The notes below the pieces were generated by a model. It saw only the letters and a list, made by a program, of their open reading frames with translations, did not search any database and was not told the DNA's origin. Positions 26,122 through 55,942 of a stretch of 64,000 nucleotides of DNA are shown piece by piece (the first letter of the stretch is position 1; each line of letters opens with the position of its first letter). Both the position numbers and the translations under genes were made by a program. This stretch comes from a virus (Duplodnaviria; Caudoviricetes), in the IMG/VR virus record IMGVR_UViG_2643221568_000002, positions 1-64,000 of that record, one strand, 5' to 3'.

Positions 26122-26154
26122 GCGCATGAGTGCCCTCGCAAGGATAACGCGATG
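26122..26154 (+). promoter_or_regulatory. Late-leader switch 1 (tailspike-like operon)
   Basis: GCGCATGAGTGC 26122-26133 before SD AGGA and ATG 26152. Confidence 0.75.
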
Positions 26155-26466
26155 GCTCTCCCCTCTGTTCACATCATTTGCGGCTTTGCAGGCGGCGACG
26201 GCAACCAGCCGACGTCGAAGCAGGCGCTTCTGCGGCTCCCTCAGTGGTCGGAGGAGCCCGCCACCGGCGTGCCGACGACGAACGGCGCAGCTGATAACGG
26301 CGCGATGAAGCCGATCCTCCGCATCACCAACACCGTGGACATCTACCTGAGTGTCGGAAAAGCGCCGAATCCGGCGATAAGCCCGCGTTTCGCACTTCGT
26401 GCGGTCGATGCCCCGCATGACATTTACGTCGAGCCCGGCGACAAGGCGGCTTGGGTGGCCGCGTAA
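26152..26466 (+). CDS. Small putative virion/tail-associated protein
   Basis: 104 aa; coupled (TAATG) to next gene. Confidence 0.7.
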   Translation: MALPSVHIICGFAGGDGNQPTSKQALLRLPQWSEEPATGVPTTNGAADNGAMKPILRITNTVDIYLSVGKAPNPAISPRFALRAVDAPHDIYVEPGDKAAWVAA

Positions 26467-28730
26467 TGGTCGGGCTGCGCCGGGCTCTTGGTCCACTTAC
26501 TCTTCCCAGATCGTTGAGGAACCTTGCAAAGGGTAGGAGCAGGGCCAAACAAGTCGATTTGCCAGTCATCACCGCTGATCTCGTTGTTTACGGCGCGAAC
26601 ATCGGCGGCGAGTTTGGGAGCATCAAATTCGATCGGCTTGCTCAAGCCGCGGCTATGGGCGTCAAGGTCGTAATCATCAACGACATGCCGGTCGATCGTG
26701 CCCATGGCATGATGATGGCGATCCTCAACTTCGATACTGACATAGCGCGCGGCAAAGGTGTCCAGCGCGGCATAGGCAATGAACTTTTTCGGCGACTTGC
26801 AAACCTGTATTTGAGCGGCGGCCTGGCACAAGAAACATTCCTCGCATCATCGAATTATGGTTCTCGGCCCGACTTCATCAAGCCGACGCTTGATGCAATG
26901 ATGGCAGAACACCCGAACATCACCTTCTATCATGATGAGCCACTCGTATCCGTTCAGAAGAGTGGCACACGCATTACCAGCCTCAGAACCGCTAAGCGAG
27001 AATACCGGGCGACCACCTACATCGACAATCACTACTGCCTTGATCTTGCACCAGCAGCTGGGTGCGACACCTTTATTGGCCGCGAGTCGTCGGCTGAGTT
27101 TGGTGAAAGCAACGCGGGCATACGGCCCCCAACCAACGCATTCTCCGTCAACATCAGCCCCTACAACATCCCCGGCAACCCGGCCAGCGGGCTCCTTTAC
27201 GGCATTCGTGACGAGGCATATGGCAATGTCGGCGACGCCTCTCTCGATGTCCAGGCTATGGCCTATAGGCAATGGGATTATGCTGCTGCGAATACCCAAA
27301 GCCCAATGCCAGTCGGTTACGATGCTTCGCGATACACTCTCGCCAAACGCAACATTCTAGCACGTGGGCTCACCTCTTTTGCCCAAGTCGTCACGCTCTA
27401 TGTCGTTCGTCATGGCAACGACGTAAACTCGAATGGCGGCAGTTCTGGCGTTGGACAGGCATTCAATTTCACCGGCCCAGAAATCCGCGAGTACATCACC
27501 GCCACACCAGCACGCCGTAAGGAAATCGAAAAGCTCGTAATGGAGTGGTGGCTTGGCTACCTCTATTTCCTGCGCACGGATACCGACCTGCCATCCGCCA
27601 TTCGCACGGGTGCCGCGGCGGTAAGGGTCATGAACACCTCGATTTGGCCTAACACGCCAGACTATCCAGGGTTCAACCCTAATTTCTATGTGAGGCAGGG
27701 ACGGTTGCTGCGCGGCGACAAAGTTTTAACGCAGCAAGACGTTGTGAACGCTCGACCGGCATGGCCGACACCTGATCCATACGAAGCAATTCAAATTGGA
27801 CGCATTACCTATGCCGGAGACCGCCACTGGTCTCGCACGCTGGTGGTGGACGATGCAACCGCAGTCGACGGCAAGCGTGTGGTAAACGAGGGCGGCATGG
27901 CCATCGCCACTCGGGTGGGAGAACCGATCCCAGCATGGGTCTTGTGGCCCAAGAAGAGCCAGTGTTCCAACCTCCTGAGCACGTTCGGAATCAGCGCGTC
28001 GGCCATAGCGCATGGATCCACCCGCATGGAAGGCCTCTCCATGCACTTCGGTGAAGCTTGTGCGGTCCTGGCTTTTATGCAGATCAAAAACCCGAGCCTG
28101 GACATTCAAGATATTCTCGGCAGTTTCGATGCCAACGGAAACTACATCATCAACGAGGCTCGTGTTGCAGAGTTTCGGAAGCTGCTGGACTTCTGGAACG
28201 TCTACGACACCAATGGGGGCGCTGTCGTTCCTGTCCCGTCAACCTATCCTTCGCCAAATGTGCCGCCGAACGTCAACGGTGGCACAGTCACAAGCACCGG
28301 GACGTGGACGACGCCGTCTGGCGCGCCGCAGTTCACTATCCCGTTCGGCTCTGCCGTTGGGCAGGCGGGGGCAACAAAGCGCTTCCAGCCGAAGCTAGAA
28401 CAGACCGGTGTTTACGAGGTCCGTCTAAGTTGGGCGGTATTCACGGGCAATGCCAGAAACACAGCGACGATAGTCCGCGTGGTTCACGCCGGAGGCACAT
28501 TCTCAACAACAAAGAACCAGAACGCTGGGAGCATCGATACGGGTGATTGGGGCTATGTCGGCCCGCGCCCGACGACAGGAACGGCTGCTGAACGTGACGC
28601 TGGCGAGATTGCCGCGTCTCGCTTCACCTTCAATGCCGGCGATCCGAGCGAACACTACGTCGAGATCGAAGTGCCATCGTCAGGGGGGACAGGAACTATC
28701 GCAGCGGTCAAGTTCATCAAAGTCGCATGA
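26466..28730 (+). CDS. Putative tailspike-like protein: FAD-dependent oxidoreductase-like domain plus golvesin/xanthan-lyase-type C-terminal domain
   Basis: DLVVYGANIGG, GRESSAEFGES.AG, YVRQGRLLRG, ISASAIAHGSTRME, GVYEVRLSW...RN....V.HAGG...NQ. Confidence 0.7.
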   Translation: MVGLRRALGPLTLPRSLRNLAKGRSRAKQVDLPVITADLVVYGANIGGEFGSIKFDRLAQAAAMGVKVVIINDMPVDRAHGMMMAILNFDTDIARGKGVQRGIGNELFRRLANLYLSGGLAQETFLASSNYGSRPDFIKPTLDAMMAEHPNITFYHDEPLVSVQKSGTRITSLRTAKREYRATTYIDNHYCLDLAPAAGCDTFIGRESSAEFGESNAGIRPPTNAFSVNISPYNIPGNPASGLLYGIRDEAYGNVGDASLDVQAMAYRQWDYAAANTQSPMPVGYDASRYTLAKRNILARGLTSFAQVVTLYVVRHGNDVNSNGGSSGVGQAFNFTGPEIREYITATPARRKEIEKLVMEWWLGYLYFLRTDTDLPSAIRTGAAAVRVMNTSIWPNTPDYPGFNPNFYVRQGRLLRGDKVLTQQDVVNARPAWPTPDPYEAIQIGRITYAGDRHWSRTLVVDDATAVDGKRVVNEGGMAIATRVGEPIPAWVLWPKKSQCSNLLSTFGISASAIAHGSTRMEGLSMHFGEACAVLAFMQIKNPSLDIQDILGSFDANGNYIINEARVAEFRKLLDFWNVYDTNGGAVVPVPSTYPSPNVPPNVNGGTVTSTGTWTTPSGAPQFTIPFGSAVGQAGATKRFQPKLEQTGVYEVRLSWAVFTGNARNTATIVRVVHAGGTFSTTKNQNAGSIDTGDWGYVGPRPTTGTAAERDAGEIAASRFTFNAGDPSEHYVEIEVPSSGGTGTIAAVKFIKVA

Positions 28731-28898
28731 ACCTCACTAATCTCACCTAGTTTGCCTCGCTCACCTTGAGACTTGCGGGGTTTACTTTTGCTAACCAGTA
28801 TCGAAATCAGGACGCATAAAGTATTATTTCCGGCCCAATAGACTAGACAGGAACTGACCAATCTAGCAGTGTAGCTCCCGATTATATAGCTGGGGACT

Positions 28899-29942: not shown

Positions 29943-30116
29943 GGTAACTGCTTTTCCTACGTCAAGGCTCGATTCGGTGGCCTTTTTTTATACCCGCCCC
30001 ATGGATCGCTGGTTGGCAACAGATCGGGGGCGCTCGAGCGACCACAAGCGGGCAGAACGGAATGTCACGTCCTTCCATTTCAACGTAACGCAATCTATAA
30101 CCGGAGCATCACGCCC

Positions 30117-30154
30117 GCGCATGAGTGCGGCTTCTCGATAGGAGCCCACGCATG
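30117..30154 (+). promoter_or_regulatory. Late-leader switch 2 (darB)
   Basis: GCGCATGAGTGC 30117-30128; alternative stem covers AGGAG and ATG 30152. Confidence 0.85.
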
Positions 30155-33100
30155 CCAATCGTTATCGGACTCGGCGATGATGCCGAGTGGAAAGACCCGC
30201 TCAACCTTTTCGGCGGCGAAGCACCGGGTCTAGCGCCTTTAACCGGTAATGTAGATCAACAAAAAACAGACCAGAATATGCGCGTTTCTATGCCTGAAGG
30301 CATGTCAGAGCGCGATTGGAACGACACCGTCAACACGGTGATTGCCGAGGCCGCGGGCGAGGGCGATGAGGGAATGGCGGGGGTCGCCCACGTCATTCAG
30401 AACCGTTCGAAGATTCGCGGTCAGTCGATCGGCGATGTCGTCAGAGATCCAGACCAGTTCACAGGCTATTCCAAGCCGGGCCCCAAAGCGCAGGAAGCAA
30501 TGCGCGACCCGCAAATGCGGGCGAGGGCGGAGAACATCGTCCGATCGGTGATGGCGGGAAAAGGAGAGGACCCGACTGGCGGCGCAGATCACTACCACGC
30601 CGACTATGTCAGCCCTTATTGGGCGAGGTCCATGGCCGAGACGAAGCGCATCGGCAATCACCTCTACTACAATTCCAAGGCAGGCAATAAGCCGCTCAGC
30701 TCCGAGACCGCGTTCGTTTCAGAGAATGATGGTTTGGGCCTATTGGGGCCGAAAGGCCAGTTTGGAGACCTGCTGAAAGGTGAACCTTCCGGCCAGACGA
30801 AGCCAAAAGGAAGAGGGCTGGCTGACCTGCTCCCCAAGGATCAGTTCGATGCCGATCCCGACAGCGAGAAGAGTTTTGACACGCTGATTTCGAAGCTTCA
30901 GCCTGGGAAGCCCAAGAGCTACATCACCGATATGCAGCCGCAGCTGCGGAATGGCCTGACAGCCATGTTCGAGAACGCGCCGGATTACGTCAGAGAAGGC
31001 CTTGATCTGCTATCTGGCGCGCGCTCGCCAGAACGGCAGGCACAGATCATCGCCGACCATGCCAACAAGTACGGTTTCGATCGTGAAGCTTGGGTTGCCG
31101 ACGTCGAGAAGCTCGGACCGGTAGAGGCAGGAAAGAAATGGCGCCCGCAGTTCAGAGCGATCGGGCTGACGAGAAACATCGGGATGCCGGGGACGTCCAA
31201 ACACCAGACCGGTGAAGCCGGCGATCTGGGCTGGAAGGGCAAAGCCTTCTCCAGCGCGCCGAGGGAAGTCCGCGAGTGGGTCCACGCGAATGCAGGAAAC
31301 TTCGACCTGCGTTTCCCTATGGCGCACGAGCCTTGGCACATCGAGCACATCAATGCTCGCAGCGGAAAGACCGATGGTTCCGCTGTTCTCGCTACCGCTT
31401 TTGTTGACCAAAAAGGCGACGATGCCGACCGCTCACTCAACTCTACGAATAGCGACCAGAACATGAACCGTACTGCTATCGTCATGGACGAAAATTATAA
31501 AGCTGGCGACGCTTTCGGCCTCTTTTCCGGCGCCACGAACCCGCTTGAGGCAGAGGCGAAGGCGACAGCCCAGGCCCGCACCGATGCTGCAGCAGCCGAG
31601 GCGCAGCGGGTCGAGCAAGAGCGCGTCGCGGCAGAAACAGCAGCCAACAATCAGTCCGTTGATGCCCGCATAGCGGACGGCAAGGGTCGCTATGTGGCGG
31701 TCAATGAGAGCGAGCTACCGGACTGGCAGAAGCAGTGGGACGAAAAGAACCGCTCGTCCGGCATCGTTGGCGATATCGTCCGGCGCTTCGGTATGGGCGC
31801 TGGTAGCACCAGCCAGTCCATCAACAACCTCAATCGGCTTATCGTCTCCAAATTGCCTGGTGGCGACGGGATCAACGAGGCGCTCGATGGGATTGACCGC
31901 TGGTGGGCTGGAAAGACCCAGAACGAGCAGACCCAAGAGAGTATCGATCGGATGTCTGGCAGTCTTTCGCCAGAAGGCGAGGCGGCTCGAGAGAAGAAGT
32001 GGTGGGACGAAGAAAACAAGACGCTCGGACCGGCGTGGAAAGATCCGCGAAGCTATATCGGCACCATTGCTGAAAGCGCCCCTGCGACGATTGCCACTAT
32101 GGCACCTTCGGGCCTGCTCGCTCGAGGCTCCTTTATGGCCGCACGGGCAGCTGGCGCAACGGCAGAGGCCGCAGCAGCGACCGCCGCAAAGACAGCAACG
32201 ATCGCCGGGGGCATCTCAGAAGGTCTTTTGGGCGGTGCAGATGCTGCTCTGTCAGTCAAACAGCGCATTGCTGAAATCCCGCGTGAGCAGCTTGTCGCCT
32301 CAGAGGCAGTAAAGCAGCTCGTCCAGGGCGGATTGTCGGAAGACGACGCCATCAAAGCGCTCAGTGAAGATGCTCAGGTGCAGGCCATGCTCACGGCTGG
32401 TGTCATCACCGGAGCCTTTGGCGGTATGGGTGACCGCGCGCTCGCGAAGATCATCGCAGAAGGCGTAGAAGGGGGTATTGCCCGACGGATTGGCGTCGGT
32501 GCGGCGAAGGGAATGGTTGGCGAAGGCATCTTCGAAGAAGCGCCGCAAAGCGCAGGCCAGACCATCGCCGAAAACGCTGCGGTAGCGCGCGTGAAGCCTG
32601 ATCAGGATCTGACGGAAGGTCTGGGCGAATCCGTGGCGAGCGGCGTTGCAGCTGGTGGCGCGATGGGCGGCGGGATGGGTGCCGTCGGGGGCGTCGCTCG
32701 TCCGGCCGCAAGCAACACAGGCGCATCCCCAGAGGCTGGGCAGGCAGCCCCGGAACCAACAGCGCCAGTCGAGCCAGATGACCGCGGACCTCTTCGTCGA
32801 GCAGCTGATCACGGCCAGCAGCGCCAGGCAGACCGCGGGGCAGCCGCGAATGCTGGTGTCCCGATCGATGGCCGTCCCGGCGTCAAATCCACCGTGCGCG
32901 TCGAAGCTGAAGGCGTTGAGCCTTTCATGGGCACGGTTGAAGGTTACGAGGGCGACGAGGCCGTCGTGGTCGATAGCGGAAGCGGGGAAGTCTATCAGGT
33001 GCCGTTGGCGAATCTGACCGAGATTGCCCCTCCGGTCGCTGACTACCAGTATCCGGAAAAATCCCAAGACGGGATGCCTGAGCACTCGGCAGACCCAGCG

Positions 33101-45430: not shown

Positions 45431-45432
45431 CG

Positions 45433-45460
45433 AAAAGCGCCGCAGATGCGGCGCTTTTTT
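45433..45460. terminator. Bidirectional intrinsic terminator
   Basis: AAAAGCGCCGCAGATGCGGCGCTTTTTT between convergent genes. Confidence 0.9.
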
Positions 45461-46820: not shown

Positions 46821-47980
46821 GCTGCTTTGTCCTTCTGAGTTTTAACCTTTGGTACAGAACCCTTGCGGGTGGCGGCTTCGGAGCCGCCGAGGCCGATTGC
46901 TTCGATGACAGCGTCCAGCTTGTTGTCGACGTCCTGGACGGCCTTCATTGTGATACCGATCGCATCCTGCGCAGCGATGTTCTGCCCGTCGCCCAAGCCA
47001 GTCTGCTTGGTGAAGTCTTGGGCATAGGTGCCGATGTGGCGCCCTTCGTCGGCCACGCCTTCCTTATAGTCCCAAGCCTCAACAGGCATTGCCTTCAGCG
47101 CCTCGAGCGCTTCGCCGTCTTCGATGGTCTCTTTGTTCTCTTTCGCGTTCTCGTCTGACTTGAATAGCAGCCCGCCGATTCCGCCCAAAAAGCTGCCGAT
47201 GCCTTGCGCCCCAGCCGCATTCATTTGCTGCTTCGTCTTCCAAGCGTCCAGCTGCAGGCCATACTGCTGGTTCAGCGTGCTCGCCTGGCCAGCATATCCC
47301 TGCATAGCACCGCTAAATCCAGAGTTCATGATGGTGGAAGCAGCAAGCGCCTGGCCGTTCGTCGCTTGGTTGCCCGATAGAGCGGTACCGCTCGCCGCGA
47401 CGCTGCCGCCAGCACCCGCAGCGGCCTGCGCTGGCAAGCCTTTCCCGAGGTTAACGACGTCGGCCTTCAGAGCGAGCGCCTTATCCCTTACGCCCTGCCT
47501 TGCCGTATTGGCCGCGCCAGCTTCAGCAAGTGAAGCGCCGAGGTCAGAGGCTGCCTGGACACCGGCAAATCGACCGCTGCCGGGTGTGACACCCATAGAA
47601 GCATTGGCGCGCTCTGTGGCCGCGCGATTGGTTGCTGCTGCGGTCTGGACGTCGGCGCGGGCCTCTGCAGCTGCTTCTGCCTGCTTGGCCTCGGTACCGT
47701 AATTTTTGGCCTCATTGATGAACTCGTCTTCAATGGGCTTGTAGACGCTCTCATAGCGGGCACGGTCCTCTTTCGACCATTTAGCCTGGTCAGTCGCGAG
47801 GCCGAGCTGCTGTTCGGTGACTTTGTTGGTGAGGGCGTCCAGCTCTTTCTGGCGAACTTCGGATACCGCGAAAGCATCCTTGGCGAACGCAAGCCAGTTT
47901 TCACCGGTCTGCGCCTGCATGAGAGCGGCTTTGCCAATCTGAGGATCTGGTGCTGGTGCTGAATTGCTGCTTTTGCCCAT
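46817..47980 (-). CDS. Putative ejection protein with C-terminal S74 chaperone-like domain
   Basis: MGKSS.SAPAPDP; Ala/Gly-rich; KSDENAKENK...WDYK...HIGTYAQDF. Confidence 0.75.
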   Translation of the reverse strand: MGKSSNSAPAPDPQIGKAALMQAQTGENWLAFAKDAFAVSEVRQKELDALTNKVTEQQLGLATDQAKWSKEDRARYESVYKPIEDEFINEAKNYGTEAKQAEAAAEARADVQTAAATNRAATERANASMGVTPGSGRFAGVQAASDLGASLAEAGAANTARQGVRDKALALKADVVNLGKGLPAQAAAGAGGSVAASGTALSGNQATNGQALAASTIMNSGFSGAMQGYAGQASTLNQQYGLQLDAWKTKQQMNAAGAQGIGSFLGGIGGLLFKSDENAKENKETIEDGEALEALKAMPVEAWDYKEGVADEGRHIGTYAQDFTKQTGLGDGQNIAAQDAIGITMKAVQDVDNKLDAVIEAIGLGGSEAATRKGSVPKVKTQKDKAA

Positions 47981-48016
47981 AGTGCTGCCTTCTGGTGAGG
48001 GTCAGCGCTCATGCGC
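47978..48016 (-). promoter_or_regulatory. Late-leader switch 3 (ejection proteins)
   Basis: Minus-strand GCGCATGAGCGC 48016-48005 before ATG 47980. Confidence 0.8.
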
Positions 48017-48026
48017 AATTTGCTAT

Positions 48027-48479: not shown

Positions 48480-48718
48480 CGTAGAAGCTTCCCCTGCAAG
48501 GCTTGAGCGACGGCGTTAAGCCGGTTCGATATCTCCTTGATGTCCTTGAGCAAGGAGTTGAAGTCGTCTGGGGTCGGTGCCGCCGTCACCTCTTTCGTCT
48601 TCACCTGGGCGAGCTGGAGCAGCTCACGCACGTCCTCGAGCCGAACAGCGGCTCGCTCTCGCGACCCGGAGCGTGAACCGTCAAGCACTTCGAGCTTTTC
48701 GATGTGATTTGGCTGCAT
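48476..48718 (-). CDS. Small virion protein
   Basis: EKLEVLDGSR...AAVR; APT.DDFN.L. Confidence 0.7.
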   Translation of the reverse strand: MQPNHIEKLEVLDGSRSGSRERAAVRLEDVRELLQLAQVKTKEVTAAPTPDDFNSLLKDIKEISNRLNAVAQALQGKLLR

Positions 48719-48720
48719 CG

Positions 48721-50454
48721 TTAGACTCGCAGTTCATCGACGGAGGTCGCCAAGGATATGGATCCGATCGGGATGTTCGACTGAACTGCTATCTCCCAGC
48801 AGCGCGCGTTTTTCGCCGCCAACCGGCATACGGAACCGATTTTGGTTGCGGTACCGACGAGCACGCCGTCAGCAAACACACTGATGCTCGCCGACATGGG
48901 GGCAGGTAGCGGTAGGAGGGCGTCGTCGGCCAGTACCATCTCTCCGAGAGCGCTGTCATTGACAGCCGACATGAGGTGCCCAGACGCAAATATCACAGCG
49001 TTCTCTGCGGTTATTCTCGCTCGCTCGGCTTCGATCCTGGCACCATTGCTCGCGTCGCCGATCGAGCCCTGATCCACCAGAATTGCGCCAAACGTGCCAG
49101 GCCGCGGCATCCAGAACTCTTTCGAGCGCCAAGAGTAGCGCTCCGGAAAACCTGCCGGATCATCAAAACGATAGACGTTTGTGTCTCCGGGCCGCTTAAA
49201 GAAAAGCGCCGAGGTCTCGATGTCGAAAAACACTGCATCGGCGGTCTCGCCGGATCGGGTAAGGAATGGCGCGGCGTTGATGTTGATGAATAGCGCGCCG
49301 GCAGATCTGTTCCCAGCGACGTCTGTCTTGTCATAGAACATCAGATAAATGTTGCCATGCTGAGCGCCAAGGGCGGTCTGCGGGGAAAGCGCCTGCCACT
49401 CATCGCGGCGGAATAGCTGTTCCGTGACGAAATCGACCTCTCCCGATGCTCTGACGGAGACCAGCCCGTCATTGCTGGGGTAGCAAATAGCGAAGCCCAG
49501 ATCGACGATGCCGCGGGCATTTATGCAGGGGAAATTCGCCTCTAGCTTTACAGCCTGCATGGAATCGGGGTGAGAGCCGGTCATCATGTAGGGGTTCGCT
49601 TTGGTCAGCACCACGAGAACCGCACCGATGGAGGCAAGACCGACAACATCGCTGTCGCATGCCATGACATACTTTTCAGGCCAGGCATGGGGGCGCCATG
49701 GTTCGCAGAAGTAGACATCGCGCCCGACAAACGCTGCCATCATACCGTTGGGCATCGACGTGATGCCAGACAGGCCGTCTTTGGGCTCATCCCAGCCAGC
49801 TGACGGTAAAGCTTCCTGAAACGCGTCTACAGCAATATTGTCGACGAAGTCGCTGGCCGATGCTGCCCGTTCTTTGATCAGGTAAAGATATGTGCCGCTT
49901 GATCCGGTCTGCGACCGGTAGATGCGTTGAAGAGTGATAGATCTGCCCGCAGGCGCAGCAGCGAAACCGCTCAACGTGACGGTTTGACCCGGCTTCCAGT
50001 CCACGCGCGGAGACGCGGGGGATGGCGCGGTCTCCTCGCCGAAGCTCGTCACGAAGGTGTAGACGTAGGTGCGCGTCTGGGTATCGCCTGTGCCCGCTCC
50101 TCCAACGGCTGCTGCCAGTGCCGAAGTGGGGCGAGGGACGCGTAGCGGGTAAACGGCGTTCGCAATGCGGACCTTGGGGGCGCCGTCGCCGGTGTAATAG
50201 AGGCGGTCCTGCGCTACAGGGCCGGGGACTGCATCAACGTCGGTAGGCCACGACAGCCATTCGCCCTGGTGACGATAAATCGTCTTTGCGCCAGTGGTGA
50301 CGCTTTCGCCGGTTTGCAATGAACCGTTGATAGGCGTCAAACCGCCGTCGTCGAGACGCACGCCGATCGCTTCTGTTGCGGCCGTTTCGGGCAAAAGACG
50401 CGGGATGATCAGCGGCTTTTCGCCGGCAAAGGCGGACAGGGTAATACGAGCCAA
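48721..50454 (-). CDS. Tail nozzle/stabilization-type protein
   Basis: 577 aa; FAGEKP..PRLLP; FCEPWRPHAWP; CINARGIV. Confidence 0.75.
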   Translation of the reverse strand: MARITLSAFAGEKPLIIPRLLPETAATEAIGVRLDDGGLTPINGSLQTGESVTTGAKTIYRHQGEWLSWPTDVDAVPGPVAQDRLYYTGDGAPKVRIANAVYPLRVPRPTSALAAAVGGAGTGDTQTRTYVYTFVTSFGEETAPSPASPRVDWKPGQTVTLSGFAAAPAGRSITLQRIYRSQTGSSGTYLYLIKERAASASDFVDNIAVDAFQEALPSAGWDEPKDGLSGITSMPNGMMAAFVGRDVYFCEPWRPHAWPEKYVMACDSDVVGLASIGAVLVVLTKANPYMMTGSHPDSMQAVKLEANFPCINARGIVDLGFAICYPSNDGLVSVRASGEVDFVTEQLFRRDEWQALSPQTALGAQHGNIYLMFYDKTDVAGNRSAGALFININAAPFLTRSGETADAVFFDIETSALFFKRPGDTNVYRFDDPAGFPERYSWRSKEFWMPRPGTFGAILVDQGSIGDASNGARIEAERARITAENAVIFASGHLMSAVNDSALGEMVLADDALLPLPAPMSASISVFADGVLVGTATKIGSVCRLAAKNARCWEIAVQSNIPIGSISLATSVDELRV

Positions 50455-50485
50455 AACTAGCCTCCTTGCTCACGCGTGCGAAGCG

Positions 50486-50902
50486 TTAGGCCACCATGGC
50501 CTTCACCCACATCTCGTCCACTTTGGCAGGAGATAAAGCTAGCGCCTGTGCGATCAGCAGAAGCGTGGGGTGATTCCTGTTGAAGCTTTGAGCATCGGCC
50601 CATTCGATCTTGGCCTCTTCCTTCTGCAATCCCTCGGGCATCGCCTCTATGAGCGCCTCCACACCTGCGAGGGCAATGCCTTCGCGAACGAGCGTTAGGC
50701 GGAGTTGACGCCGAGTGACAGGAGAGAGAACGACCTCGGGCGTAAAGGGGAGCCACGCGCCGTCCTTCCAGACTTGCCGGGCATCCTGCGGAGAGGTCGG
50801 CACCTCAACACCCGCCGACAACTCGGGGGGCAGGTTCTCAGTGGGGCCATCGTAGCTGCCGATATACGCGCCTTCTTTATCGACAAAAAACCGCTGTTTC
50901 AT
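50486..50902 (-). CDS. Tail fibre assembly/chaperone protein
   Basis: Follows fibre; VTRRQLRLTL...IEW..A..F.R.HP. Confidence 0.75.
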   Translation of the reverse strand: MKQRFFVDKEGAYIGSYDGPTENLPPELSAGVEVPTSPQDARQVWKDGAWLPFTPEVVLSPVTRRQLRLTLVREGIALAGVEALIEAMPEGLQKEEAKIEWADAQSFNRNHPTLLLIAQALALSPAKVDEMWVKAMVA

Positions 50903-52353
50903 AGCCACGCCCTCACTTTCAGTTTCCAGCTCGCTACTGTGAGACCGAATAAGACCCCGGTAGACCAGTTACCGACTACGCCAATGCCTCCGGTGCCTAC
51001 CTTGCCGTAAACGTTGGATGCGTCTGCTTTAAGAGCCACGCCGTAGCTGCCGTTTCCGCCGTTGACAGCCCATTGATGGTCAACTCGAATTTCGTCACCT
51101 ACCGAGTACCCCTGATCCGCTGTGGCGCACACGAGATAGCACTCAAGTCTTTTAGGTTTCGCGCCAAGAGGATGGGCGAGCGTCAGGTTTCCGCCCGCCG
51201 CAATGGTCTGCTCACTACTTGCCCAGCCCGCCTGCTTGTCTGTCAGACTGGAGAGATTTGCTGTCAGTGTCTGCACGCTATTGGTCAAGGCCGCGAGGTC
51301 CAAGCTCCCCGGCACTTGATCCGCCGCATATGCCTTGATCCAGTAGGTAAAGGTCTTGTTGACCGGACGCGTTTCGGCAGCAACGCGTGGGGTGCCATTG
51401 TTGCCGTCCGGTAGGGTTGGACCGTGTCCGTTAGCCTGCGGCTGAGCGACGTTCGTCACGTCGTCATATAGTTGGTAGACGGTGTTGTATTGATTGTTGT
51501 TGACGACAGCAGAACGGTAGCCCCCCGCCGCTAGGTTGACGGGATGCCTGTGGCCCTGAAGCGCGTCCTGCTGCGCTGAACCGAATACACGCCCACTGTC
51601 TACAACCTGACCAGAACGCCAGCCGCGCGGAAAATAACCGCCCATGTCTTCAATGATCGGGTTGCCGCTGCCATCGACGCTCGCCCCATTCGCCAACAAC
51701 CAAGCTCTGAGCTGGGGGTAGGCGGTAGTGCAAGGGGCGCCATTATGGAGAAGAAAGCCAGGCGGTGGGGTGCTCCCGTTGCTTTGCATCATGATCGTAG
51801 TGCCGATAGGCAGCTCGATCTGTTGGACTTTGGTCGTGAGGTTCGTTATCGCGGTGTTCACGTTGGCTAAGGCGGTTGCCATAGTCGTCGCGAACTGGGG
51901 ATCATTTCCTAATGCGTCAGCCAGCTCCTTGAGTGTGTCCAGCGTAGAAGGCGAGCTGGCGACTAAGTCAGCGATCTTTTGTTGAATGAGCGCAGTCATC
52001 GTTGCGGTGTCGGCTTTGTCATCCAAGGCGGTGTCAACGCTAGCGATCGAAGTCACCAGGTCGGCGATCACTGCATTGGTCACCCTGATGTCGATTCGAG
52101 AGCCAGCAGGAAACTCCTTCGCCGTTGTCCCCTCCTGCGCGCGCAGCAGGGTAAGGGTCGGCCCAGTGCGTGCAGTAACTCGCACGATTTCGCGATTGCC
52201 CGCTGCGTCGACGATAGTGGCGGGGTGCCAGTCACCGACGGTAAGCACCGGGAATTTACCCGCGTCACCGTTCTGGATCGACAGCGTCGTCGCGTCCAGC
52301 GTGATCGACGATGCCAGGGTTGAAATAGCAAGGTTGGCGAGCTTGAGTGCCAT
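50899..52353 (-). CDS. Tail fibre protein with collar domain
   Basis: SPSTLDTLKELADALGNDPQFATT; FPRGW..DSGRVFGSAQQDALQGHRH...ETRPVN. Confidence 0.88.
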   Translation of the reverse strand: MALKLANLAISTLASSITLDATTLSIQNGDAGKFPVLTVGDWHPATIVDAAGNREIVRVTARTGPTLTLLRAQEGTTAKEFPAGSRIDIRVTNAVIADLVTSIASVDTALDDKADTATMTALIQQKIADLVASSPSTLDTLKELADALGNDPQFATTMATALANVNTAITNLTTKVQQIELPIGTTIMMQSNGSTPPPGFLLHNGAPCTTAYPQLRAWLLANGASVDGSGNPIIEDMGGYFPRGWRSGQVVDSGRVFGSAQQDALQGHRHPVNLAAGGYRSAVVNNNQYNTVYQLYDDVTNVAQPQANGHGPTLPDGNNGTPRVAAETRPVNKTFTYWIKAYAADQVPGSLDLAALTNSVQTLTANLSSLTDKQAGWASSEQTIAAGGNLTLAHPLGAKPKRLECYLVCATADQGYSVGDEIRVDHQWAVNGGNGSYGVALKADASNVYGKVGTGGIGVVGNWSTGVLFGLTVASWKLKVRAWL

Positions 52354-52979
52354 CAGTAATAGCTCCCCTTGGTTCGTGGGCGGGCGCCCTGTTGGCCTTT
52401 GGCGACTTTCATGGGGAGACTGTCGAGAAATGCGGCGAATTCGCTCTGCAACAGCGTTCCCATCTGCGGATTGGGCCCTGTGTCATCTGTCGGCAGCATC
52501 AGGACACGCGCCGCCGCGCCTTTTCCGATCTCGGTGCCATAATTGTCGACGAGGAAATCTGGAAGCGTGAGGGCAGATCTCGAGGGTTTCAGGATAAGCC
52601 GAACATTCAACGTCCCTGCATTGAACGGGACGACTTGGATCACACCAGGCTTGATCTGAGTGATGAACCGGGATGTGGCACCGGTTGGTTCTTCCTCGTC
52701 CCAGCCTGGAGAATTCTCGTCGAGCCATTCCGGTGTCTGCGGGGTGAGCGGGACACCATTGATGGTTGCTTTCTCGATACGAACGATCTCCGCGTCCGTT
52801 ACCGACGTCAGTTCGCTTCCTTCGTCATCGTCGATCGTGATCGAGGTGCGCTCGCGCCAGAGATCGACCTTCTCGCAGATGGCGCGTGCCGCCTCACGAA
52901 GGTAACGCACAGCGGCAGGATCAGAACAGTTTGGCGCGTGGATCAGGACTTCAGGAAGCAGCTCGTCGATGTCGCGCAT
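52353..52979 (-). CDS. Putative head-tail adaptor/tail protein
   Basis: LLPEV..HAPNCSDP...LREAA..ICEK..LW. Confidence 0.7.
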   Translation of the reverse strand: MRDIDELLPEVLIHAPNCSDPAAVRYLREAARAICEKVDLWRERTSITIDDDEGSELTSVTDAEIVRIEKATINGVPLTPQTPEWLDENSPGWDEEEPTGATSRFITQIKPGVIQVVPFNAGTLNVRLILKPSRSALTLPDFLVDNYGTEIGKGAAARVLMLPTDDTGPNPQMGTLLQSEFAAFLDSLPMKVAKGQQGARPRTKGSYY

Positions 52980-53683
52980 CAGCGCCTCCTATTCGGATTT
53001 GCTGCGGTTTCGACCTGTACCTTGATGCCGATCGCTGCGGCGAACATCTGGTAATGGGAGAGTGCCTTGTTCGGGTCGCCGGCAATGTCATCTTTGGAGA
53101 AAGCACGGAACAGCACATAGTCAAGCAGTGGAACGGAGTAGGGCTCTGGTAGACCTGTCTCAACATTCCATGCGTCGAGCGTCGCCTCGTCCGTGTTTGC
53201 GATGGGTGAGACCGGGGCAGGGAGGTAGGATATCGCCGCTTCGACTATCCCGGTGCCGTCATTGCCTGGGTAGGAGTAGAACTCGAGCGGCAAGTTCTCG
53301 TCGAACACGACCTGGCGCACTTCCTTCCGGAATGGTTGAGCGGTGGGGCTGTGCCAGTTCGGCTCCTGTGCATCCAGCAGCGCTCGAGCCGCCGTCCGGA
53401 TTGCCCTGCCACCAATGCGGTTTGGGCCAGCATCGACGAGGTTGCGATTGACCCCAAGAAGCTGCAAGGGCGTCACACCATCGATAGTATCCGGCAGAAC
53501 GTGATGCGTTCCAGCGCCCAGCGCGATCGGTGCGGTCTTTGAGGATGATGATGGCTTTGCGAGAATGACGGCCTTGACGGCTTCATTCAGCCAAGCGGCC
53601 AGCTCTGGGAGAGGCCAGCGCACATACTCCTGATCAAGGAGCTGGACGCCGGCGTTCTTTAGGATGTCTTTTGCCTTCGGCAT
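52979..53683 (-). CDS. Putative adaptor protein (DUF6682-like)
   Basis: VRWPLPELAAWLNEA; LLDYVLFRAFSKD. Confidence 0.75.
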   Translation of the reverse strand: MPKAKDILKNAGVQLLDQEYVRWPLPELAAWLNEAVKAVILAKPSSSSKTAPIALGAGTHHVLPDTIDGVTPLQLLGVNRNLVDAGPNRIGGRAIRTAARALLDAQEPNWHSPTAQPFRKEVRQVVFDENLPLEFYSYPGNDGTGIVEAAISYLPAPVSPIANTDEATLDAWNVETGLPEPYSVPLLDYVLFRAFSKDDIAGDPNKALSHYQMFAAAIGIKVQVETAANPNRRR

Positions 53684-53686
53684 AGA

Positions 53687-54098
53687 TCACGCTTTGCTGG
53701 TTGCGCGGGCCTTTTTCGGCTTGACTTCAGGGGCAGGGGCAACACCTTCTTCGGTGCCTTCGGTGCCTTCGGTGCCTTCGGTGCCTTCGGTGCCTTCGGT
53801 GCCTTCGGTGCCTTCGGTGCCTTCGGTGCCTTCGGTGCCTTCCTTCGGTGCCTTCGGTGCCTTCGGTGCCTTCGCCTGGCGTTCCGCCGCTCAGAAACGC
53901 GGGGAGTTCAGTTTCTTCCGGCTGCTCTGGCACCAGCGGAACTTCACGGTAGTGCTGTACATTCAGGAAGATCGAACGATGAAGCATGCTGCCAACGTCG
54001 TTGACGAAGCGGCCATATTCATCGCGTTCGAAATAGTATGACGTTCCGCCGATGGTCTGTTCGGTATAGCCGGTGGTGCACTCGATGACTGTCTTCAT
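53687..54098 (-). pseudogene. Virion-associated gene frameshifted within a 9-bp tandem repeat (real or assembly error)
   Basis: Removing the TTCC at 53840-53843 gives (EGT)n...EVKPKKARATSKA* ending at 53687, next to the downstream ATG. Confidence 0.6.
53750..53870. repeat. 9-bp tandem repeat TTCGGTGCC x13 with one TTCC interruption
   Basis: 10 units + TTCC + 3 units. Confidence 0.95.
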
Positions 54099-54112
54099 GA
54101 CAAGCTCCTTTG

Positions 54113-54136
54113 AAAAAGGGGGCTCGCGGCCCCCTC
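54113..54136 (-). terminator. Intrinsic terminator
   Basis: GAGGGGGCCGCGAGCCCCCUUUUU. Confidence 0.75.
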
Positions 54137-54157
54137 ATTGATGCGCCGTGACGGCTG

Positions 54158-54619
54158 TTACTCAGAGACGAGGAAGACGGTCAGACCCATCTGTCCGGCC
54201 ACGAACGTTGCGGCTGCCGCCGTGAACTTGATGCCGATCGAGCGATCGTTGTTCGCGGAGCTGGTGCGGTAGGCGCCCTTAGTCAACGGGCGAGCCGCGA
54301 CACCGTTCTGAGAAATCGTCGAACCGGCGAAGAACTCATTGCCGCACGTGCGTGCCTGGTTCTCTTCGCCGAAAGAGCCGCTCATGATGCCGACGTCGAA
54401 GGCAATCGTCGGCGCGGCGTTCGAATCGAGATCGTCGCTGTCAGCGATGATTTCAGCGACACGGCAGTTGGAGGGGATGCAGGCAAGCTCCAGAATGTCG
54501 CCAACGGCTGGGTTGGCGGCGATCTGGTGCGAGAAGCGGATAGCGACCACTTCGCCAGCGGTGGATGGGTAGGAAATGGCTTCCGTGCCCTTGGCATATT
54601 TGCTCTGAATGAGCGTCAT
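54158..54619 (-). CDS. Putative capsid decoration/minor head protein
   Basis: Follows MCP; DSDDLDS...FDVGIMSG. Confidence 0.7.
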   Translation of the reverse strand: MTLIQSKYAKGTEAISYPSTAGEVVAIRFSHQIAANPAVGDILELACIPSNCRVAEIIADSDDLDSNAAPTIAFDVGIMSGSFGEENQARTCGNEFFAGSTISQNGVAARPLTKGAYRTSSANNDRSIGIKFTAAAATFVAGQMGLTVFLVSE

Positions 54620-54660
54620 CTCGAAAGTCCTTCAGGTGGAAGGGTCGCTAAGACCGATGG

Positions 54661-54688
54661 AAAGGTGAAAGCCCGACCGAAGCCGGGC
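54661..54688 (-). terminator. Terminator/stability hairpin after MCP
   Basis: GCCCGGC-UUCG-GUCGGGC followed by UUUCACCUUU. Confidence 0.7.
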
Positions 54689-54694
54689 CAATCG

Positions 54695-55792
54695 TTAAGC
54701 GTTGGGGTCCTTCGCGGCGGTATCGACCGAGATCACACCATAATCGCGACCGTTGAAGCGCGTCTTCTTCACACCGGCGATGACACCGGAAGCGACGACG
54801 GGCTCGTTACCGTGGTCCTTGGTTTCTTCCGTCCATGTGTAACGGAAGCCACCGGCAGAGCCGAACGCGATGACGGCGGCTTGGCGGCCGATGAAGAGTG
54901 CGCGGCCAGCTTTGACGTTCCCGCCAGCACCGTAGTCACCAAAGCGGATTGCCCACTCGTGGCTGTGAAGCACAGTGTTGTTGACCATGCCGAGGCCACC
55001 CTTGAAGATCGGATTATTCCGTCCTTCTGCCGTCGCCGCTGCCTTCTGGATTTCAAGCCAGCCACCGGCGTCGTTGGTGCGCAGGTCATGTTCCTGGAAC
55101 GGGTTCATGACCATGACGTAGTGCGCTTCGCCATTGATCATGATCGGCATCATGTTGGCGTTCTTCGGGTCTTTGGCCGACATCATGCGGGCCTTGACCT
55201 GTGCGCGCTCGATCAGCGACCGGGACATGATGTCCGACGCATCGATCGAGGCCTTAGAGGTGGCGTCGCCACCGTACAGGATGTGATCGGCGTCGGGCGC
55301 CTCGATCGGGTTTTCCGCGTGGCCGGTCCATTCAACCGACTCGATGAAGTCTTCGTTGGTGCCGCGCGAGCCGGACAGGTAGATGAAGGTCATCTGGTCG
55401 TTGAATTTCGACCAGTAGTCAGAAAGGCGGTTCTTGCCGATCTGGCGCATGTTGTGGGCGGTGCGCTTGCGGGACATTTTGCCGCCAGCAGAAACACCGT
55501 GGCGCATCTGGTCAATCTTCAGCTGGTCGCTGAAGAAGCGCAGGCTCTCTTCCTTGCCTTCCAGGCGGTTGTCGCCGTAGGTAGGCTTGTTGCGGAGCTG
55601 GACGGACAGGTCGAAGGTGATGGTATCGCCGGCTTCCGATTCGAGATCGGTAAGACGCTGGATCGCGAATTCGTCAGACGTGCCGACGAACTTACGGTCG
55701 AAGTAGCTCTTCTTGGTGATGTCAATGAAAAGCCCACCAGACCACTTTTTCTGGGCTTTCGGATCGCCAAAGGCAACCACGGTCTTGGTCAT
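54695..55792 (-). CDS. Major capsid protein (N4-gp56/DUF4043 family)
   Basis: GDPKAQKKWS; DLESEAGDTITFDL; LEGKEESL; IDQMRHGV; GGAG SD before ATG 55792. Confidence 0.92.
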   Translation of the reverse strand: MTKTVVAFGDPKAQKKWSGGLFIDITKKSYFDRKFVGTSDEFAIQRLTDLESEAGDTITFDLSVQLRNKPTYGDNRLEGKEESLRFFSDQLKIDQMRHGVSAGGKMSRKRTAHNMRQIGKNRLSDYWSKFNDQMTFIYLSGSRGTNEDFIESVEWTGHAENPIEAPDADHILYGGDATSKASIDASDIMSRSLIERAQVKARMMSAKDPKNANMMPIMINGEAHYVMVMNPFQEHDLRTNDAGGWLEIQKAAATAEGRNNPIFKGGLGMVNNTVLHSHEWAIRFGDYGAGGNVKAGRALFIGRQAAVIAFGSAGGFRYTWTEETKDHGNEPVVASGVIAGVKKTRFNGRDYGVISVDTAAKDPNA

Positions 55793-55833
55793 GAGTGATG
55801 TCTCCGGTTCAGGAACAAACAGCACTCATGCGC
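55790..55833 (-). promoter_or_regulatory. Late-leader switch 4 (major capsid)
   Basis: GCGCATGAGTGC 55833-55822; CAUGAGUG pairs perfectly with CACUCAUG containing the start codon. Confidence 0.85.
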
Positions 55834-55904
55834 ATTGATACTCTGATTACTGGAAATGCTGGATTGTTGCAACACGTAACGCGTGATACTGGAGGAGATC
55901 GCTA

Positions 55905-55942
55905 GCGCATGAGTGCGGCCTCTTCTTCGGAGCGCACACATG
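55905..55942 (+). promoter_or_regulatory. Late-leader switch 5 (lysis)
   Basis: GCGCATGAGTGC 55905-55916; CAUGAGUGCG pairs with CGCACACAUG (start 55940). Confidence 0.85.

What the first reader, a model, noticed from the sequence alone, without database searches (positions are those of the whole stretch)
26122..55942. Five late transcription units share a two-state RNA leader that can hide the SD and start codon
Seen: GCGCATGAG(T/C)GC occurs at 26122(+), 30117(+), 48016(-), 55833(-) and 55905(+). Each is in sense orientation, with its AUG 26-37 nt before the first start codon of a late unit (tailspike-like, darB, ejection, capsid, endolysin). State A is a small hairpin GCGC-AUGA-GYGC: the single variant (48016) turns a G-U pair into G-C, and the flanking pair is G-C at 26122 but C-G at 30117. 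State B uses the same bases to pair with the initiation region. darB: GCAUG-A-GUG/CAC-G-CAUGC plus GGCUUCU/AGGAGCC. Capsid: CAUGAGUG/CACUCAUG plus UGUUU/AGACA. Endolysin: CAUG-A-GUGCG/CGCAC-A-CAUG plus CUCU/GGAG. Ejection: CAU/AUG, AG/CU, GCUG/CAGC, CCU/AGG. 26122 is the weakest (CAU/AUG, CCU/AGG). The downstream sequences differ, yet each is complementary to its own leader. Inference: late mRNAs are translationally off until a factor binds state A, like Mu Com activating mom but as a whole late regulon. I know of no description of this.
Basis: partly seen in the sequence, partly recalled or inferred. Interest (0 to 1): 0.95.

Follow-up and report, generated by a model that had tools for sequence, protein, structure and literature searches.

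The report
Phage late-mRNA leader switch, CsrA-like operator
Five late messages of this prophage begin with the same 12-base RNA box that can fold on itself or onto the gene's start site, and it is probably the docking site of a small CsrA-like RNA-binding protein that the phage encodes, which would give that long-unexplained phage gene a job.

Summary
GCGCATGAGYGC occurs five times (0.19 expected), always in sense and 26-37 nt before the first start codon of a late unit. The same sites are kept in Agrobacterium phage Atu_ph08 and Sinorhizobium phage PBC5.

Both folds are supported in relatives. A 4-bp hairpin precedes the capsid gene in 100 of 106 related loci, with a few compensatory changes. 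The box also co-varies with the start-codon region: own pairs average -13.6 kcal/mol against -9.8 +/- 0.33 for shuffled pairs, 0 of 20000 shuffles.

The likely one is a 62-aa CsrA-family protein at 25560-25748. Its family profile matches RsmE/CsrA at E 8.9e-11. It sits right before the capsid leader in distant relatives, where the loop is often AGGA, the textbook CsrA site.

Not shown: the transcription start, binding, and whether control is positive or negative. I favour activation by freeing the start site (about 0.5).

The papers I could search treat phage CsrA as a host-directed "moron" with an untested role. This scan had already reached similar readings on other DNA. I class it as a new variant of a known kind.

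The parts
26122..26154 (+). Leader of unit 1: box 26122-26133, SD AAGGA, AUG at 26152. It precedes a 104-aa ORF and a 754-aa FAD_oxidored-like ORF.
   Evidence: (R1 20.7 bits). This is the weakest state B: z -0.76, and its start-region duplex is no better than 25 of 50 other genes.
30117..30154 (+). Leader of the giant DarB-like gene (30152-45430): box, nested SD hairpin GGCUUCU/AGGAGCC, AUG at 30152.
   Evidence: 21.7 bits; -21.8 kcal/mol, z -3.51. The same leader is present in Atu_ph08 and PBC5.
47978..48016 (-). Leader of the two virion/ejection-type genes (46817-47980 and 45486-46820); box variant GCGCAUGAGCGC.
   Evidence: 19.3 bits; -19.7, z -2.28. An orthologous leader was found in 9 of 11 close loci.
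55790..55833 (-). Leader of the major capsid gene (54695-55792) and the virion genes behind it. CAUGAGUG pairs with CACUCAUG.
   Evidence: 24.2 bits; -17.9, z -2.40. Covariation across 59 unique leaders.
55905..55942 (+). Leader of the endolysin gene (55940-56875) and two small genes behind it.
   Evidence: 20.5 bits; -15.8, z -1.17.
25560..25748 (+). 62-aa CsrA-family gene, the last gene of the terminase-portal-scaffold array. It is the candidate ligand of the box.
   Evidence: Pfam CsrA E 0.0078, below the cut-off. phrog_8397 'CsrA-like regulator' E 0.0021. The family profile A1 matches RsmE 2jpp at E 8.9e-11. In the fold search the ten best matches are all CsrA/RsmA/RsmE chains.
55844..55872 (-). 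Putative capsid promoter TTGCAA-N17-TAATCA, ending 10 nt before the box (read by eye).
   Evidence: Conserved in relatives. The tool's consensus scan did not call it.
26076..26104 (+). Putative unit-1 promoter TTGATC-N17-TATCAA, ending 17 nt before the box (read by eye).
   Evidence: Not called by the scan.
30096..30101 (+). Putative -10 element TATAAC of the darB unit, 15 nt before the box (read by eye).
   Evidence: TATAAC/TATAAA/TATAAC lies at the same place in the window, Atu_ph08 and PBC5.
55885..55890 (+). Putative -10 element GATACT of the endolysin unit, 14 nt before the box (read by eye).
   Evidence: GATACT/GATATT/GTTATT in the three phages.
45432..45459 (.). 12-bp G+C-rich hairpin with a T run between the convergent ends of the darB unit and the ejection unit; likely a shared terminator.

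Best explanation
The box is an RNA element at the 5' end of five late mRNAs of a temperate Bcep22/Atu_ph08-type podophage. The leader has two exclusive folds. In fold B, the predicted ground state, the loop and 3' arm of the box pair with the region just before and including the start codon, often around a nested hairpin that holds the SD, so initiation is hindered. In fold A the box forms a 4-bp hairpin, GCGC-A(U/A/G)GA(N)-GYGC, which has the shape of a high-affinity CsrA site.

The phage's own CsrA-family protein (25560-25748) is made from the terminase-portal-scaffold operon, which carries no box. I propose that it binds fold A, keeps the box away from the start region, and so switches on translation of capsid, lysis, ejection and DarB-like genes. 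It may also protect the 5' end of the mRNA. That would make it a translational late switch.

Shown here: the motif, its conservation, both pairings by covariation, the family membership of the protein, and the linkage of gene and box. Inferred: the transcription start, binding, and the direction of control.
For: 1. The motif is real. Five copies against 0.19 expected. The covariance model R1 scores the five sites at 19.3-24.2 bits, and the next window hit at 13.6.

2. It is conserved at orthologous late genes. Atu_ph08 has it before darB, ejection, capsid and endolysin. PBC5 has it before the same four, with variants. In 11 close loci it precedes capsid and endolysin in 11 of 11 and ejection in 9 of 11. 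PEp14 has three such leaders.

3. Fold A. A 4-bp hairpin lies before the capsid gene in 100 of 106 loci. On 58 unique sequences 97.4% of cells pair. Pair 1 is GC 48, GU 7, AU 2, CG 1. Pair 2 is CG 53, UG 2, UA 1, and two GGGC/GUCC cases were misaligned there.

4. Fold B. Box and start region co-vary. Own duplexes average -13.61 against shuffled -9.79 +/- 0.33, 0 of 20000 shuffles. Over 22 box classes the figures are -13.81 against -9.54 +/- 0.48, 0 of 20000. Own pairs beat the median cross-class pair in 51 of 59 cases. A control segment inside the gene shows almost no effect.

5. All five window leaders fold into B. Forcing fold A costs 2.8-8.5 kcal/mol and lowers the cost of opening the RBS from 8.2-14.7 to 5.3-8.1 kcal/mol. 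The five RBS are more closed than those of 50 other genes (Mann-Whitney p 0.006).

6. The protein is CsrA-family.

7. Linkage. One CsrA-like gene lies just upstream of the capsid leader in 5 of 5 complete relatives. It is within the upstream flank in 15 of 15 distant genome loci and in 39 of 50 IMG/VR loci L065-L114.

8. In 24 of 46 unique protein-box pairs the loop holds GGA (AGGA, AGGAC, AUGGAU), as in the SELEX consensus RUACARGGAUGU with stems of 4 bp or fewer (review passages).

9. Position. The best -35/-10 match ends 10-18 nt before the box in 58 of 73 unique upstream regions.

10. Precedent. CsrA activates ymdA by opening an SD-sequestering hairpin, and protects the 5' end of flhDC mRNA.
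Against: There are no binding or expression data. No RNA run holds the stretch, so the 5' ends are not mapped. The tool's promoter scan calls no promoter before any of the five boxes.

The window's own loops are AUGA and lack the GGA that defines CsrA sites. The window protein alone scores below Pfam's cut-off (16.6 against 27 bits).

The stem is short and mostly invariant, so covariation for fold A rests on few events. Sense folds only slightly better than antisense: -21.5 against -20.1, lower in 37 of 62.

Fold B is not universal. Unit 1 is ordinary. L013 and L021 are exceptions. Five of 19 endolysin and ejection leaders of relatives pair no better than background.

An SD GGA lies 14-22 nt after the loop in 4 of 5 leaders. 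That spacing fits the classical two-site repressive mode, which bridges 10-63 nt.

Knock-down of the csrA homologue of phage PTXU04 only made plaques smaller. That is milder than expected for an indispensable capsid activator. I did not check whether PTXU04 is related to this phage.
Confidence: 0.5

Rival explanations
1. Same operator and same CsrA-like ligand, but the control is negative. One dimer bridges the 5' hairpin and the GGA of the SD and blocks the ribosome, as CsrA does on glgC. This would limit or delay late protein synthesis, or shut it off once enough protein is made.
For: Repression is the common CsrA mode, and dimers bridge sites 10-63 nt apart with an optimum near 18 nt (review passages). 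A GGA in the SD lies 14-22 nt after the loop in 4 of 5 leaders. Knock-down of a phage csrA in PTXU04 gave only smaller plaques. In PBC5 and L006 a copy of the box covers the integrase start codon, where binding could only repress.
Against: The unbound leaders are already predicted to be closed, so a repressor would add little. The binding loop is itself buried in the closed fold. The capsid needs very high expression. The ejection leader has no GGA at its SD.
Confidence: 0.2
2. The leader works as RNA alone. The 5' stem-loop sets mRNA stability or a fixed, low translation efficiency, and no phage protein reads it. Its linkage with the CsrA-like gene is only synteny.
For: Fold B is the predicted ground state and is kept by covariation. 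5'-terminal structures are known to stabilise bacterial mRNAs (recalled). The window's loops lack GGA.
Against: This does not explain why the 5' arm, which fold B does not need, is kept and co-varies with the 3' arm. It does not explain why loops keep A-N-G-A and are AGGA in many relatives. It does not explain why the element travels with a CsrA-family gene.
Confidence: 0.15
3. The box is a DNA site: an operator or activator site of the late promoters, or part of a promoter for a phage-specific factor.
For: It lies within about 30 bp of promoter-like elements and always has the same orientation to the gene. The window encodes GcrA-like and GapR-like DNA-binding proteins and DNA methyltransferases.
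Against: Its distance to the -10-like element varies from 8 to 17 nt in the window and more in relatives. It is not a DNA palindrome, since the third pair is G-T in 53 of 58 sequences. The two arms and the start region change together, whereas a protein site would stay fixed. G-U pairs occur in the folds of 50 of 62 leaders.
Confidence: 0.07
4. The box is a nut/put-like site on the nascent RNA that makes RNA polymerase resist terminators across the long late operons.
For: It is a small hairpin near the 5' end of long units (15 kb for darB), like boxB of lambda and P22 (recalled).
Against: No N-like or Q-like protein turned up in the PHROG scans of 30 ORFs. No terminator-like site lies between any box and its first gene. 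The conserved partner of the box is the start-codon region, which antitermination does not need.
Confidence: 0.04

Closest known systems
CsrA activation of ymdA translation in E. coli (also moaA, and RsmA on phz2), as described in the review PMC7652899 (passages read)
   Same: A CsrA-family protein binds a site that is part of, or next to, a hairpin hiding the ribosome-binding site. Binding opens that hairpin.
   Different: Here the protein is phage-encoded and very diverged, and the targets are the phage's own late genes as a set. The helix buries mainly the start codon. The window's loops are AUGA rather than GGA. Nothing has been tested at the bench.
Classical CsrA/RsmE repression operators (glgC, hcnA; RsmE-hcnA structure 2jpp)
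   Same: A short hairpin of 4 bp or fewer presents A(N)GGA in its loop, and a second GGA sits in the SD some 14-22 nt away. The protein family is the same.
   Different: The hairpin lies 20-35 nt upstream of the SD and competes with an RBS-occluding helix. The direction of control is unknown. There is no sign of a CsrB/RsmZ-type decoy RNA: Rfam found only a tRNA in the window.
'CsrA-like regulator' genes annotated in Bcep22, BcepIL02, BcepMigl, DC1, JC1, PEp14, Pavtok, Itty13, Skulduggery, Parlo and SopranoGao (PMC9144972, PMC7366521, PMC8450108)
   Same: Same gene family and same place in the genome, after portal and scaffold and before or near the capsid gene.
   Different: Those papers treat it as a moron acting on the host (carbon metabolism, biofilm, CRISPR suppression), or leave its role open. 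None of the passages I read names a target in the phage's own mRNAs.
Mu Com activation of mom translation (recalled, not tested here)
   Same: A small phage protein binds a hairpin in the leader and so melts a neighbouring structure that hides the SD and start codon.
   Different: Com is a zinc-finger protein acting on one gene. Here the candidate is CsrA-family and five units share the operator. No Com-like protein was seen.

Membership tests
CsrA/RsmA protein family (Pfam PF02599) | Sequence or profile similarity to CsrA | tested here: met
   The window protein alone is below threshold: Pfam E 0.0078, 16.6 bits against a cut-off of 27; phrog_8397 E 0.0021. A profile of 18 family members matches RsmE 2jpp at E 8.9e-11 and nine further CsrA/Rsm sequences. 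Twelve of 18 members match PF02599 at E <= 0.01.
CsrA/RsmA protein family (Pfam PF02599) | CsrA fold | tested here: met
   The AlphaFold2 model has mean pLDDT 80.5. The ten best Foldseek PDB matches are all CsrA/RsmA/RsmE chains: probability 0.85-0.99, TM 0.49-0.55, but weak E-values of 0.14-0.46.
CsrA/RsmA protein family (Pfam PF02599) | Intertwined homodimer with two RNA-binding faces | not testable with these tools
CsrA-type RNA operator | GGA in the loop of a short hairpin | tested here: inconclusive
   Not met by the five window boxes, whose loops are AUGA. Met in relatives: the loop holds GGA in 24 of 46 unique protein-box pairs. Single phages mix AUGA, AAGAC and AGGA loops on different leaders (L009, L011, L012). 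The common core is therefore A-N-G-A.
CsrA-type RNA operator | Direct binding by the protein | not testable with these tools
   Needs a gel shift, footprint or CLIP.
CsrA-activated leaders (ymdA type) | The binding site lies inside or next to a helix that hides the RBS, so the two folds are exclusive | tested here: met
   for the window; for covariation of box and start region.
CsrA-activated leaders (ymdA type) | Expression rises when the protein is present | not testable with these tools
   No RNA or protein data are available.
Mu Com/mom | Com-type zinc-finger activator | tested here: not met
   No such family appeared among the PHROG and Pfam matches of the ORFs I scanned. The scan did not cover every small ORF.
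Lambda N/nut or HK022 put antitermination | N-like protein or boxA/boxB, with terminators downstream to be read through | tested here: not met
   No N/Q-type match. No terminator-like site lies between a box and its gene. No Rfam family covers the leaders.

The most novel reading that the evidence does not exclude
The 'CsrA-like regulator' carried by a whole clade of podophages (Bcep22, JC1, PEp14, GP4, Atu_ph08, PBC5 and many proviruses) is not a host-directed moron. It is the phage's own late translational switch. It is made with portal and scaffold, docks on an A-N-G-A hairpin at the 5' end of the capsid, lysis, ejection and DarB-type mRNAs, and frees start codons that the same bases otherwise hide. 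This would be a self-contained Csr module that also works in hosts without a csrA gene of their own. Where a copy of the box covers the integrase start, as in PBC5, it might also shut integrase off.
Probability: 0.45. Interest if true: 0.8.

Novelty: new variant of a known kind. Interest (0 to 1): 0.7.

Why it matters
Phage csrA genes have been catalogued since 2005-2020. They are explained as tools to manipulate the host. In 2025 the CRISPRi-ART paper still stated that their role in the phage life cycle had not been tested.

A conserved cis target on the phage's own late mRNAs turns that open question into direct experiments. It would add a post-transcriptional late switch to the known ways phages time their late genes (recalled: Q and N antitermination, late sigma factors and activators, Com). 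It could also explain how late units with promoter-like elements that look constitutive are kept silent in a lysogen.

It further offers a compact protein-plus-12-nt-operator pair that may be portable as a translational switch. Lastly, it bears on phage-therapy papers that flag csrA as a possible lysogenic-conversion gene.

Tried and rejected
RNA evidence. The look-up of sequencing runs listed no RNA holder. Read laying on 45401-57700 gave only contigs that are probably DNA (X1, X2) and zero reads from two RNA runs (X11, X19). There is therefore no information on transcription starts or expression.

Promoter scan. The consensus scan called none of the promoters that I read by eye. My own scoring is lenient, and the best hit in a 28-nt range is partly forced.

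uORF idea. The box's AUG opens 6-codon ORFs in the darB and capsid leaders, as read from the sequences. Relatives replace AUG by AAG or AGG, so a uORF is not the conserved feature. Rejected.

Specificity switch between loop type and protein lineage. GGA-loop phages often keep an Arg near the place of CsrA Arg44 (position recalled), and UGA/AGA-loop phages often do not. But single phages mix loop types on different leaders. Rejected as a clean rule and kept only as a lead.

Antisense copy of the leader inside the 3' end of the CsrA-like gene (25705-25730, a lead from note e1-6218889). It is real in the window, with 16 of 17 bases complementary to the endolysin leader. The same criterion found nothing in Atu_ph08 or PBC5. 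Left open.

Within-window test of complementarity. Four of five start regions pair with the box better than 48 of 50 other genes. Against all 1983 ATG contexts they rank only at the 4th to 21st percentile, and unit 1 at the 70th. The window alone is therefore weak evidence; the comparison with relatives carries the case.

Rfam. No family lies on the leaders.

Literature. Searches found no paper linking a phage CsrA to the phage's own leaders. The Bcep22 genome paper (PMC3187461) is not held and I did not see it.

What I saw of each paper was passages returned by 'find': PMC8310193, PMC7366521, PMC11879866, PMC8545117 (irrelevant), PMC9144972, PMC8450108, PMC7652899.

Rows dropped. L025 has no upstream sequence. 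Six of 106 loci had no clean hairpin and were left out: L029, L091, L094, L103, L109 and L112. Of these, L094, L103 and L029 carry imperfect versions, L112 has a UGGA loop, and L091 and L109 have none that I could see. For L027 I chose the second hairpin by hand; the automatic choice gave the same result.

Full report
WHAT IS THERE

The window is a temperate podophage-type provirus. Its record is 76,332 bases. It carries terminase, portal, scaffold-like, major capsid, internal virion, tail fibre and endolysin genes, a 5,092-codon DarB-like polyvalent gene, and an integrase next to a tRNA. The closest named phages by capsid protein are Agrobacterium phage Atu_ph08 (89.9% identity) and Sinorhizobium phage PBC5 (87.1%). 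More distant relatives include PEp14, Ochrobactrum POI1126, Itty13, many Ralstonia phages and Burkholderia phages; 416 records match in all.

THE OBSERVATION

Degenerate copies are not enriched: 32 against 30.15 at up to 2 mismatches. There are no further copies in the rest of the record.

Each copy is in sense with the gene downstream. The box's AUG lies 26-37 nt before the start codon. A covariance model built from relatives (R1) scores the five sites at 19.3-24.2 bits, and the next best window hit at 13.6.

One gene label is not supported. The large ORF of unit 1 matches a FAD-oxidoreductase family, not a tailspike family.

CONSERVATION

Atu_ph08 has the box before darB, the ejection-type genes, capsid and endolysin. 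PBC5 has it before the same four genes, with GCGCATGAGTGT before ejection and GCGCATGACGTGC before endolysin.

I collected 27 loci from bacterial genomes and 80 from IMG/VR with the capsid protein as query. One locus, L025, lacks upstream sequence. Of the other 106, 100 have a 4-bp hairpin of the form N4-A..GA..-N4 in the capsid leader. The loops seen are AUGA, AUGAC, AUGAU, AAGA, AAGAC, AAGAU, AGGA, AGGAC, AGGAU, AGGAA, AGAA and AUGGAU/C. The six without a clean hairpin are listed under Tried and rejected.

In the 11 close loci L003-L013, R1 finds the capsid and endolysin leaders in 11 of 11 and the ejection leader in 9 of 11. PEp14 has three leaders, before capsid, an endolysin-like gene and one more gene. 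A Rhodobacter-type provirus has at least three. GP4 and Gerry show only the capsid leader with this model.

IS IT RNA, AND DOES IT HAVE TWO FOLDS?

Fold A, the small hairpin. On 58 unique sequences 97.4% of cells pair. Pair 1 is GC 48, GU 7, AU 2, CG 1. Pair 2 is CG 53, UG 2, UA 1. Pair 3 is GU 53, GC 5. Pair 4 is CG 53, UG 1. Two further GGGC/GUCC cases were misaligned by MAFFT. The stem is short and mostly invariant, so this is modest support. Part of it is built in, because I selected the sequences as hairpins.

Fold B, box against start region, is the stronger case. I computed the best duplex between each box (plus two bases) and positions -14 to +5 of the capsid start. I compared each phage's own pair with pairs shuffled among phages.
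- With 59 unique leaders, the own mean is -13.61 kcal/mol against -9.79 +/- 0.33 for shuffles; 0 of 20000 shuffles were as low.
- With one value per box class (22 classes), the figures are -13.81 against -9.54 +/- 0.48, again 0 of 20000.
- Own pairs beat the median cross-class pair in 51 of 59 cases.
- A control segment at +6 to +24 gave -7.34 against -6.93, with 148 of 5000 shuffles as low (a first, smaller run is).

Examples read:
- CAUGACGUGC with GCACGUCAUG (L017)
- CAUGAGUA with UACUCAUG (L027, where the 5' arm also changes to GUGC, a three-way change)
- CAUGAUGU with ACAUCAUG (L018)
- GGAUGUGC with GCACAUCC (L019)
- AGGAGUGU with ACACUCC (Ralstonia phages)

Exceptions exist, namely L013 and L021. 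In some lineages, such as the PEp14 type, the partner of the box lies just before the SD and not on the AUG.

In the window, the minimum-energy fold of every leader pairs the 3' half of the box with the start region. Energies are -14.4, -21.8, -19.7, -17.9 and -15.8 kcal/mol, with z-scores of -0.76, -3.51, -2.28, -2.40 and -1.17. Forcing fold A costs 2.8-8.5 kcal/mol. It lowers the cost of opening -13 to +5 from 8.2-14.7 to 5.3-8.1 kcal/mol.

The five RBS are on average more closed than those of 50 other genes, 12.3 against 8.8 kcal/mol (Mann-Whitney p 0.006). Unit 1 is ordinary, with 23 of 50 genes at least as closed. Sense folds only slightly better than antisense.

Evidence against a DNA site: the distance to the -10-like element varies, the G-T 'pair' makes the box a poor palindrome, and the arms change together instead of staying fixed.

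WHERE THE mRNA STARTS (INFERRED)

Conserved promoter-like elements precede the boxes. The capsid has TTGCAA-N17-TAATCA/TATTTA, and distant relatives have TTGCAA-N17-TAAAAT or GATAAT. darB has TATAAC/TATAAA, and unit 1 has TTGATC-N17-TATCAA. The best -35/-10 match ends 10-18 nt before the box in 58 of 73 unique upstream regions. That would put the box within roughly the first 5-25 nt of the RNA.

The tool's own consensus scan does not call these sites. No RNA data could be found. This step is therefore unproven.

THE CANDIDATE FACTOR

A note from the first stage (e1-6218881) pointed to a 62-aa ORF at 25560-25748 as CsrA-like. I tested this.
- Alone it is marginal: Pfam CsrA E 0.0078, below the cut-off; phrog 'CsrA-like regulator' E 0.0021.
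- In the more distant loci, the ORF that ends just before the capsid leader belongs to the same family.
- A profile of 18 members matches RsmE (2jpp) at E 8.9e-11 and nine other CsrA/Rsm entries. Twelve of 18 members match PF02599.
- The model (pLDDT 80.5) has CsrA/RsmA/RsmE chains as its ten best structural matches, with high probabilities but weak E-values.

The gene is the last of the terminase-portal-scaffold array, which carries no box.

Linkage with the box is tight. There is one copy in each of 5 of 5 complete relatives, directly upstream of the capsid leader in three and within about 1 kb in two. It lies in the upstream flank in 15 of 15 distant genome loci and in 39 of 50 IMG/VR loci L065-L114. 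Of the 11 without it, four have flanks under 450 nt, and at least two have the window's arrangement, where the gene lies far away. It is also present in Atu_ph08 and PBC5.

GenBank and RefSeq records already name this gene 'CsrA-like regulator' in Bcep22, BcepIL02, BcepMigl, PEp14, Pavtok, Itty13, Skulduggery, Parlo and SopranoGao.

The box has the shape of a CsrA site. According to the review passages, the SELEX consensus is RUACARGGAUGU, most selected hairpins have four or fewer pairs, and dimers bridge two sites 10-63 nt apart. In relatives the loop is often AGGA closed by C-G. The window's AUGA lacks the first G. Single phages mix AUGA, AAGAC and AGGA(C) on different leaders, so the common requirement looks like A-N-G-A.

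MECHANISM AND ODDS

The unbound leader is closed, and the loop and 3' arm that a CsrA-type protein would hold are the very bases that close it. The simplest reading is therefore activation by anti-sequestration, as shown for CsrA on ymdA, possibly with 5'-end protection as on flhDC. I give this reading 0.5.

Classical repression through the hairpin plus the SD GGA, 14-22 nt away in 4 of 5 leaders, is a serious rival at 0.2. The remaining rivals are RNA-only function (0.15), a DNA site (0.07) and antitermination (0.04).

COMPARISON WITH WHAT IS KNOWN

The protein is a member of the CsrA family. The operator resembles CsrA sites but fails the GGA criterion in this window. The logic is that of ymdA and of Mu Com/mom (the latter recalled).

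On the literature, from passages read:
- Sobrero and Valverde listed 30 csrA-positive phages and left the role open.
- The JC1 paper calls the gene a moron, possibly virion-associated on the strength of one peptide.
- Campa et al. proposed that it suppresses host defences.
- The CRISPRi-ART paper states that the role in the phage life cycle had not been tested, and found smaller plaques on knock-down in PTXU04.

Seven searches found no paper linking the protein to the phage's own leaders. Within this scan, however, follow-ups on other genomes had already reached much the same reading (e1-6205387, e1-5325659, e1-5867588, e1-5267430). I tested the claims on this window and its relatives independently.

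VERDICT

The feature is real, and the two-state leader is supported. A plausible ligand has been identified. Binding, the 5' ends and the direction of control remain to be shown. I class it as a new variant of a known kind, with interest 0.7.

Noticed in passing
L002 (PBC5) 961-972 (+); L006 253-264 (+): A full copy of the box covers the start of the integrase gene. The annotated start codon is the AUG inside the box (M-S-A-L-T-D...). If the CsrA-like protein binds the box, it could only block integrase translation here. The window's own integrase (57691-59013, -) has no box.
   Followed up: partly
window 25705-25730 (+), inside the 3' end of the CsrA-like gene: This hairpin, CUGA-G-GCCGC-ACUCAC-GCGGC-G-UCAG, has 16 of 17 bases complementary to the endolysin leader. 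It also lies just after the stop of the minus-strand gene 25745-26041. The same criterion found nothing in Atu_ph08 or PBC5.
   Followed up: partly
window 26466-28730 (+): The large ORF of unit 1 matches Pfam FAD_oxidored PF12831 (E 1.1e-39) and, below cut-off, Golvesin_C. It matches no tailspike family and no PHROG. This unit, with its leader, is absent from Atu_ph08 and PBC5.
   Followed up: no
window 14972-16853 (+): The early rightward array encodes a GapR-like DNA-binding protein, a GcrA-like protein and a DNA methyltransferase side by side. This is the trio of an alphaproteobacterial cell-cycle module carried by a phage.
   Followed up: no
window 59173-59259 (-) and 59337-60491 (-): A tRNA gene lies next to the prophage integrase and is probably the attachment site. 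A second integrase-like gene follows directly, so another mobile element seems to abut the prophage (note e1-6218895).
   Followed up: no
L009, L011, L012 (capsid, endolysin and ejection leaders): Within one phage the loop differs between leaders, for example AAGAC, AAGAC, AGGA in L009 and AUGA, AUGA, AGGA in L012. One protein would have to accept A-N-G-A rather than strict GGA.
   Followed up: partly
L106, L107, L104, L018, L021, L111 (upstream of the capsid leaders): Rhodobacter-type relatives share a CA(C/T)ATGTGGTA(A/T) element 13-20 nt before the box. It looks like an extended -10 promoter, different from the TTGCAA-N17 type of the other lineages.
   Followed up: no
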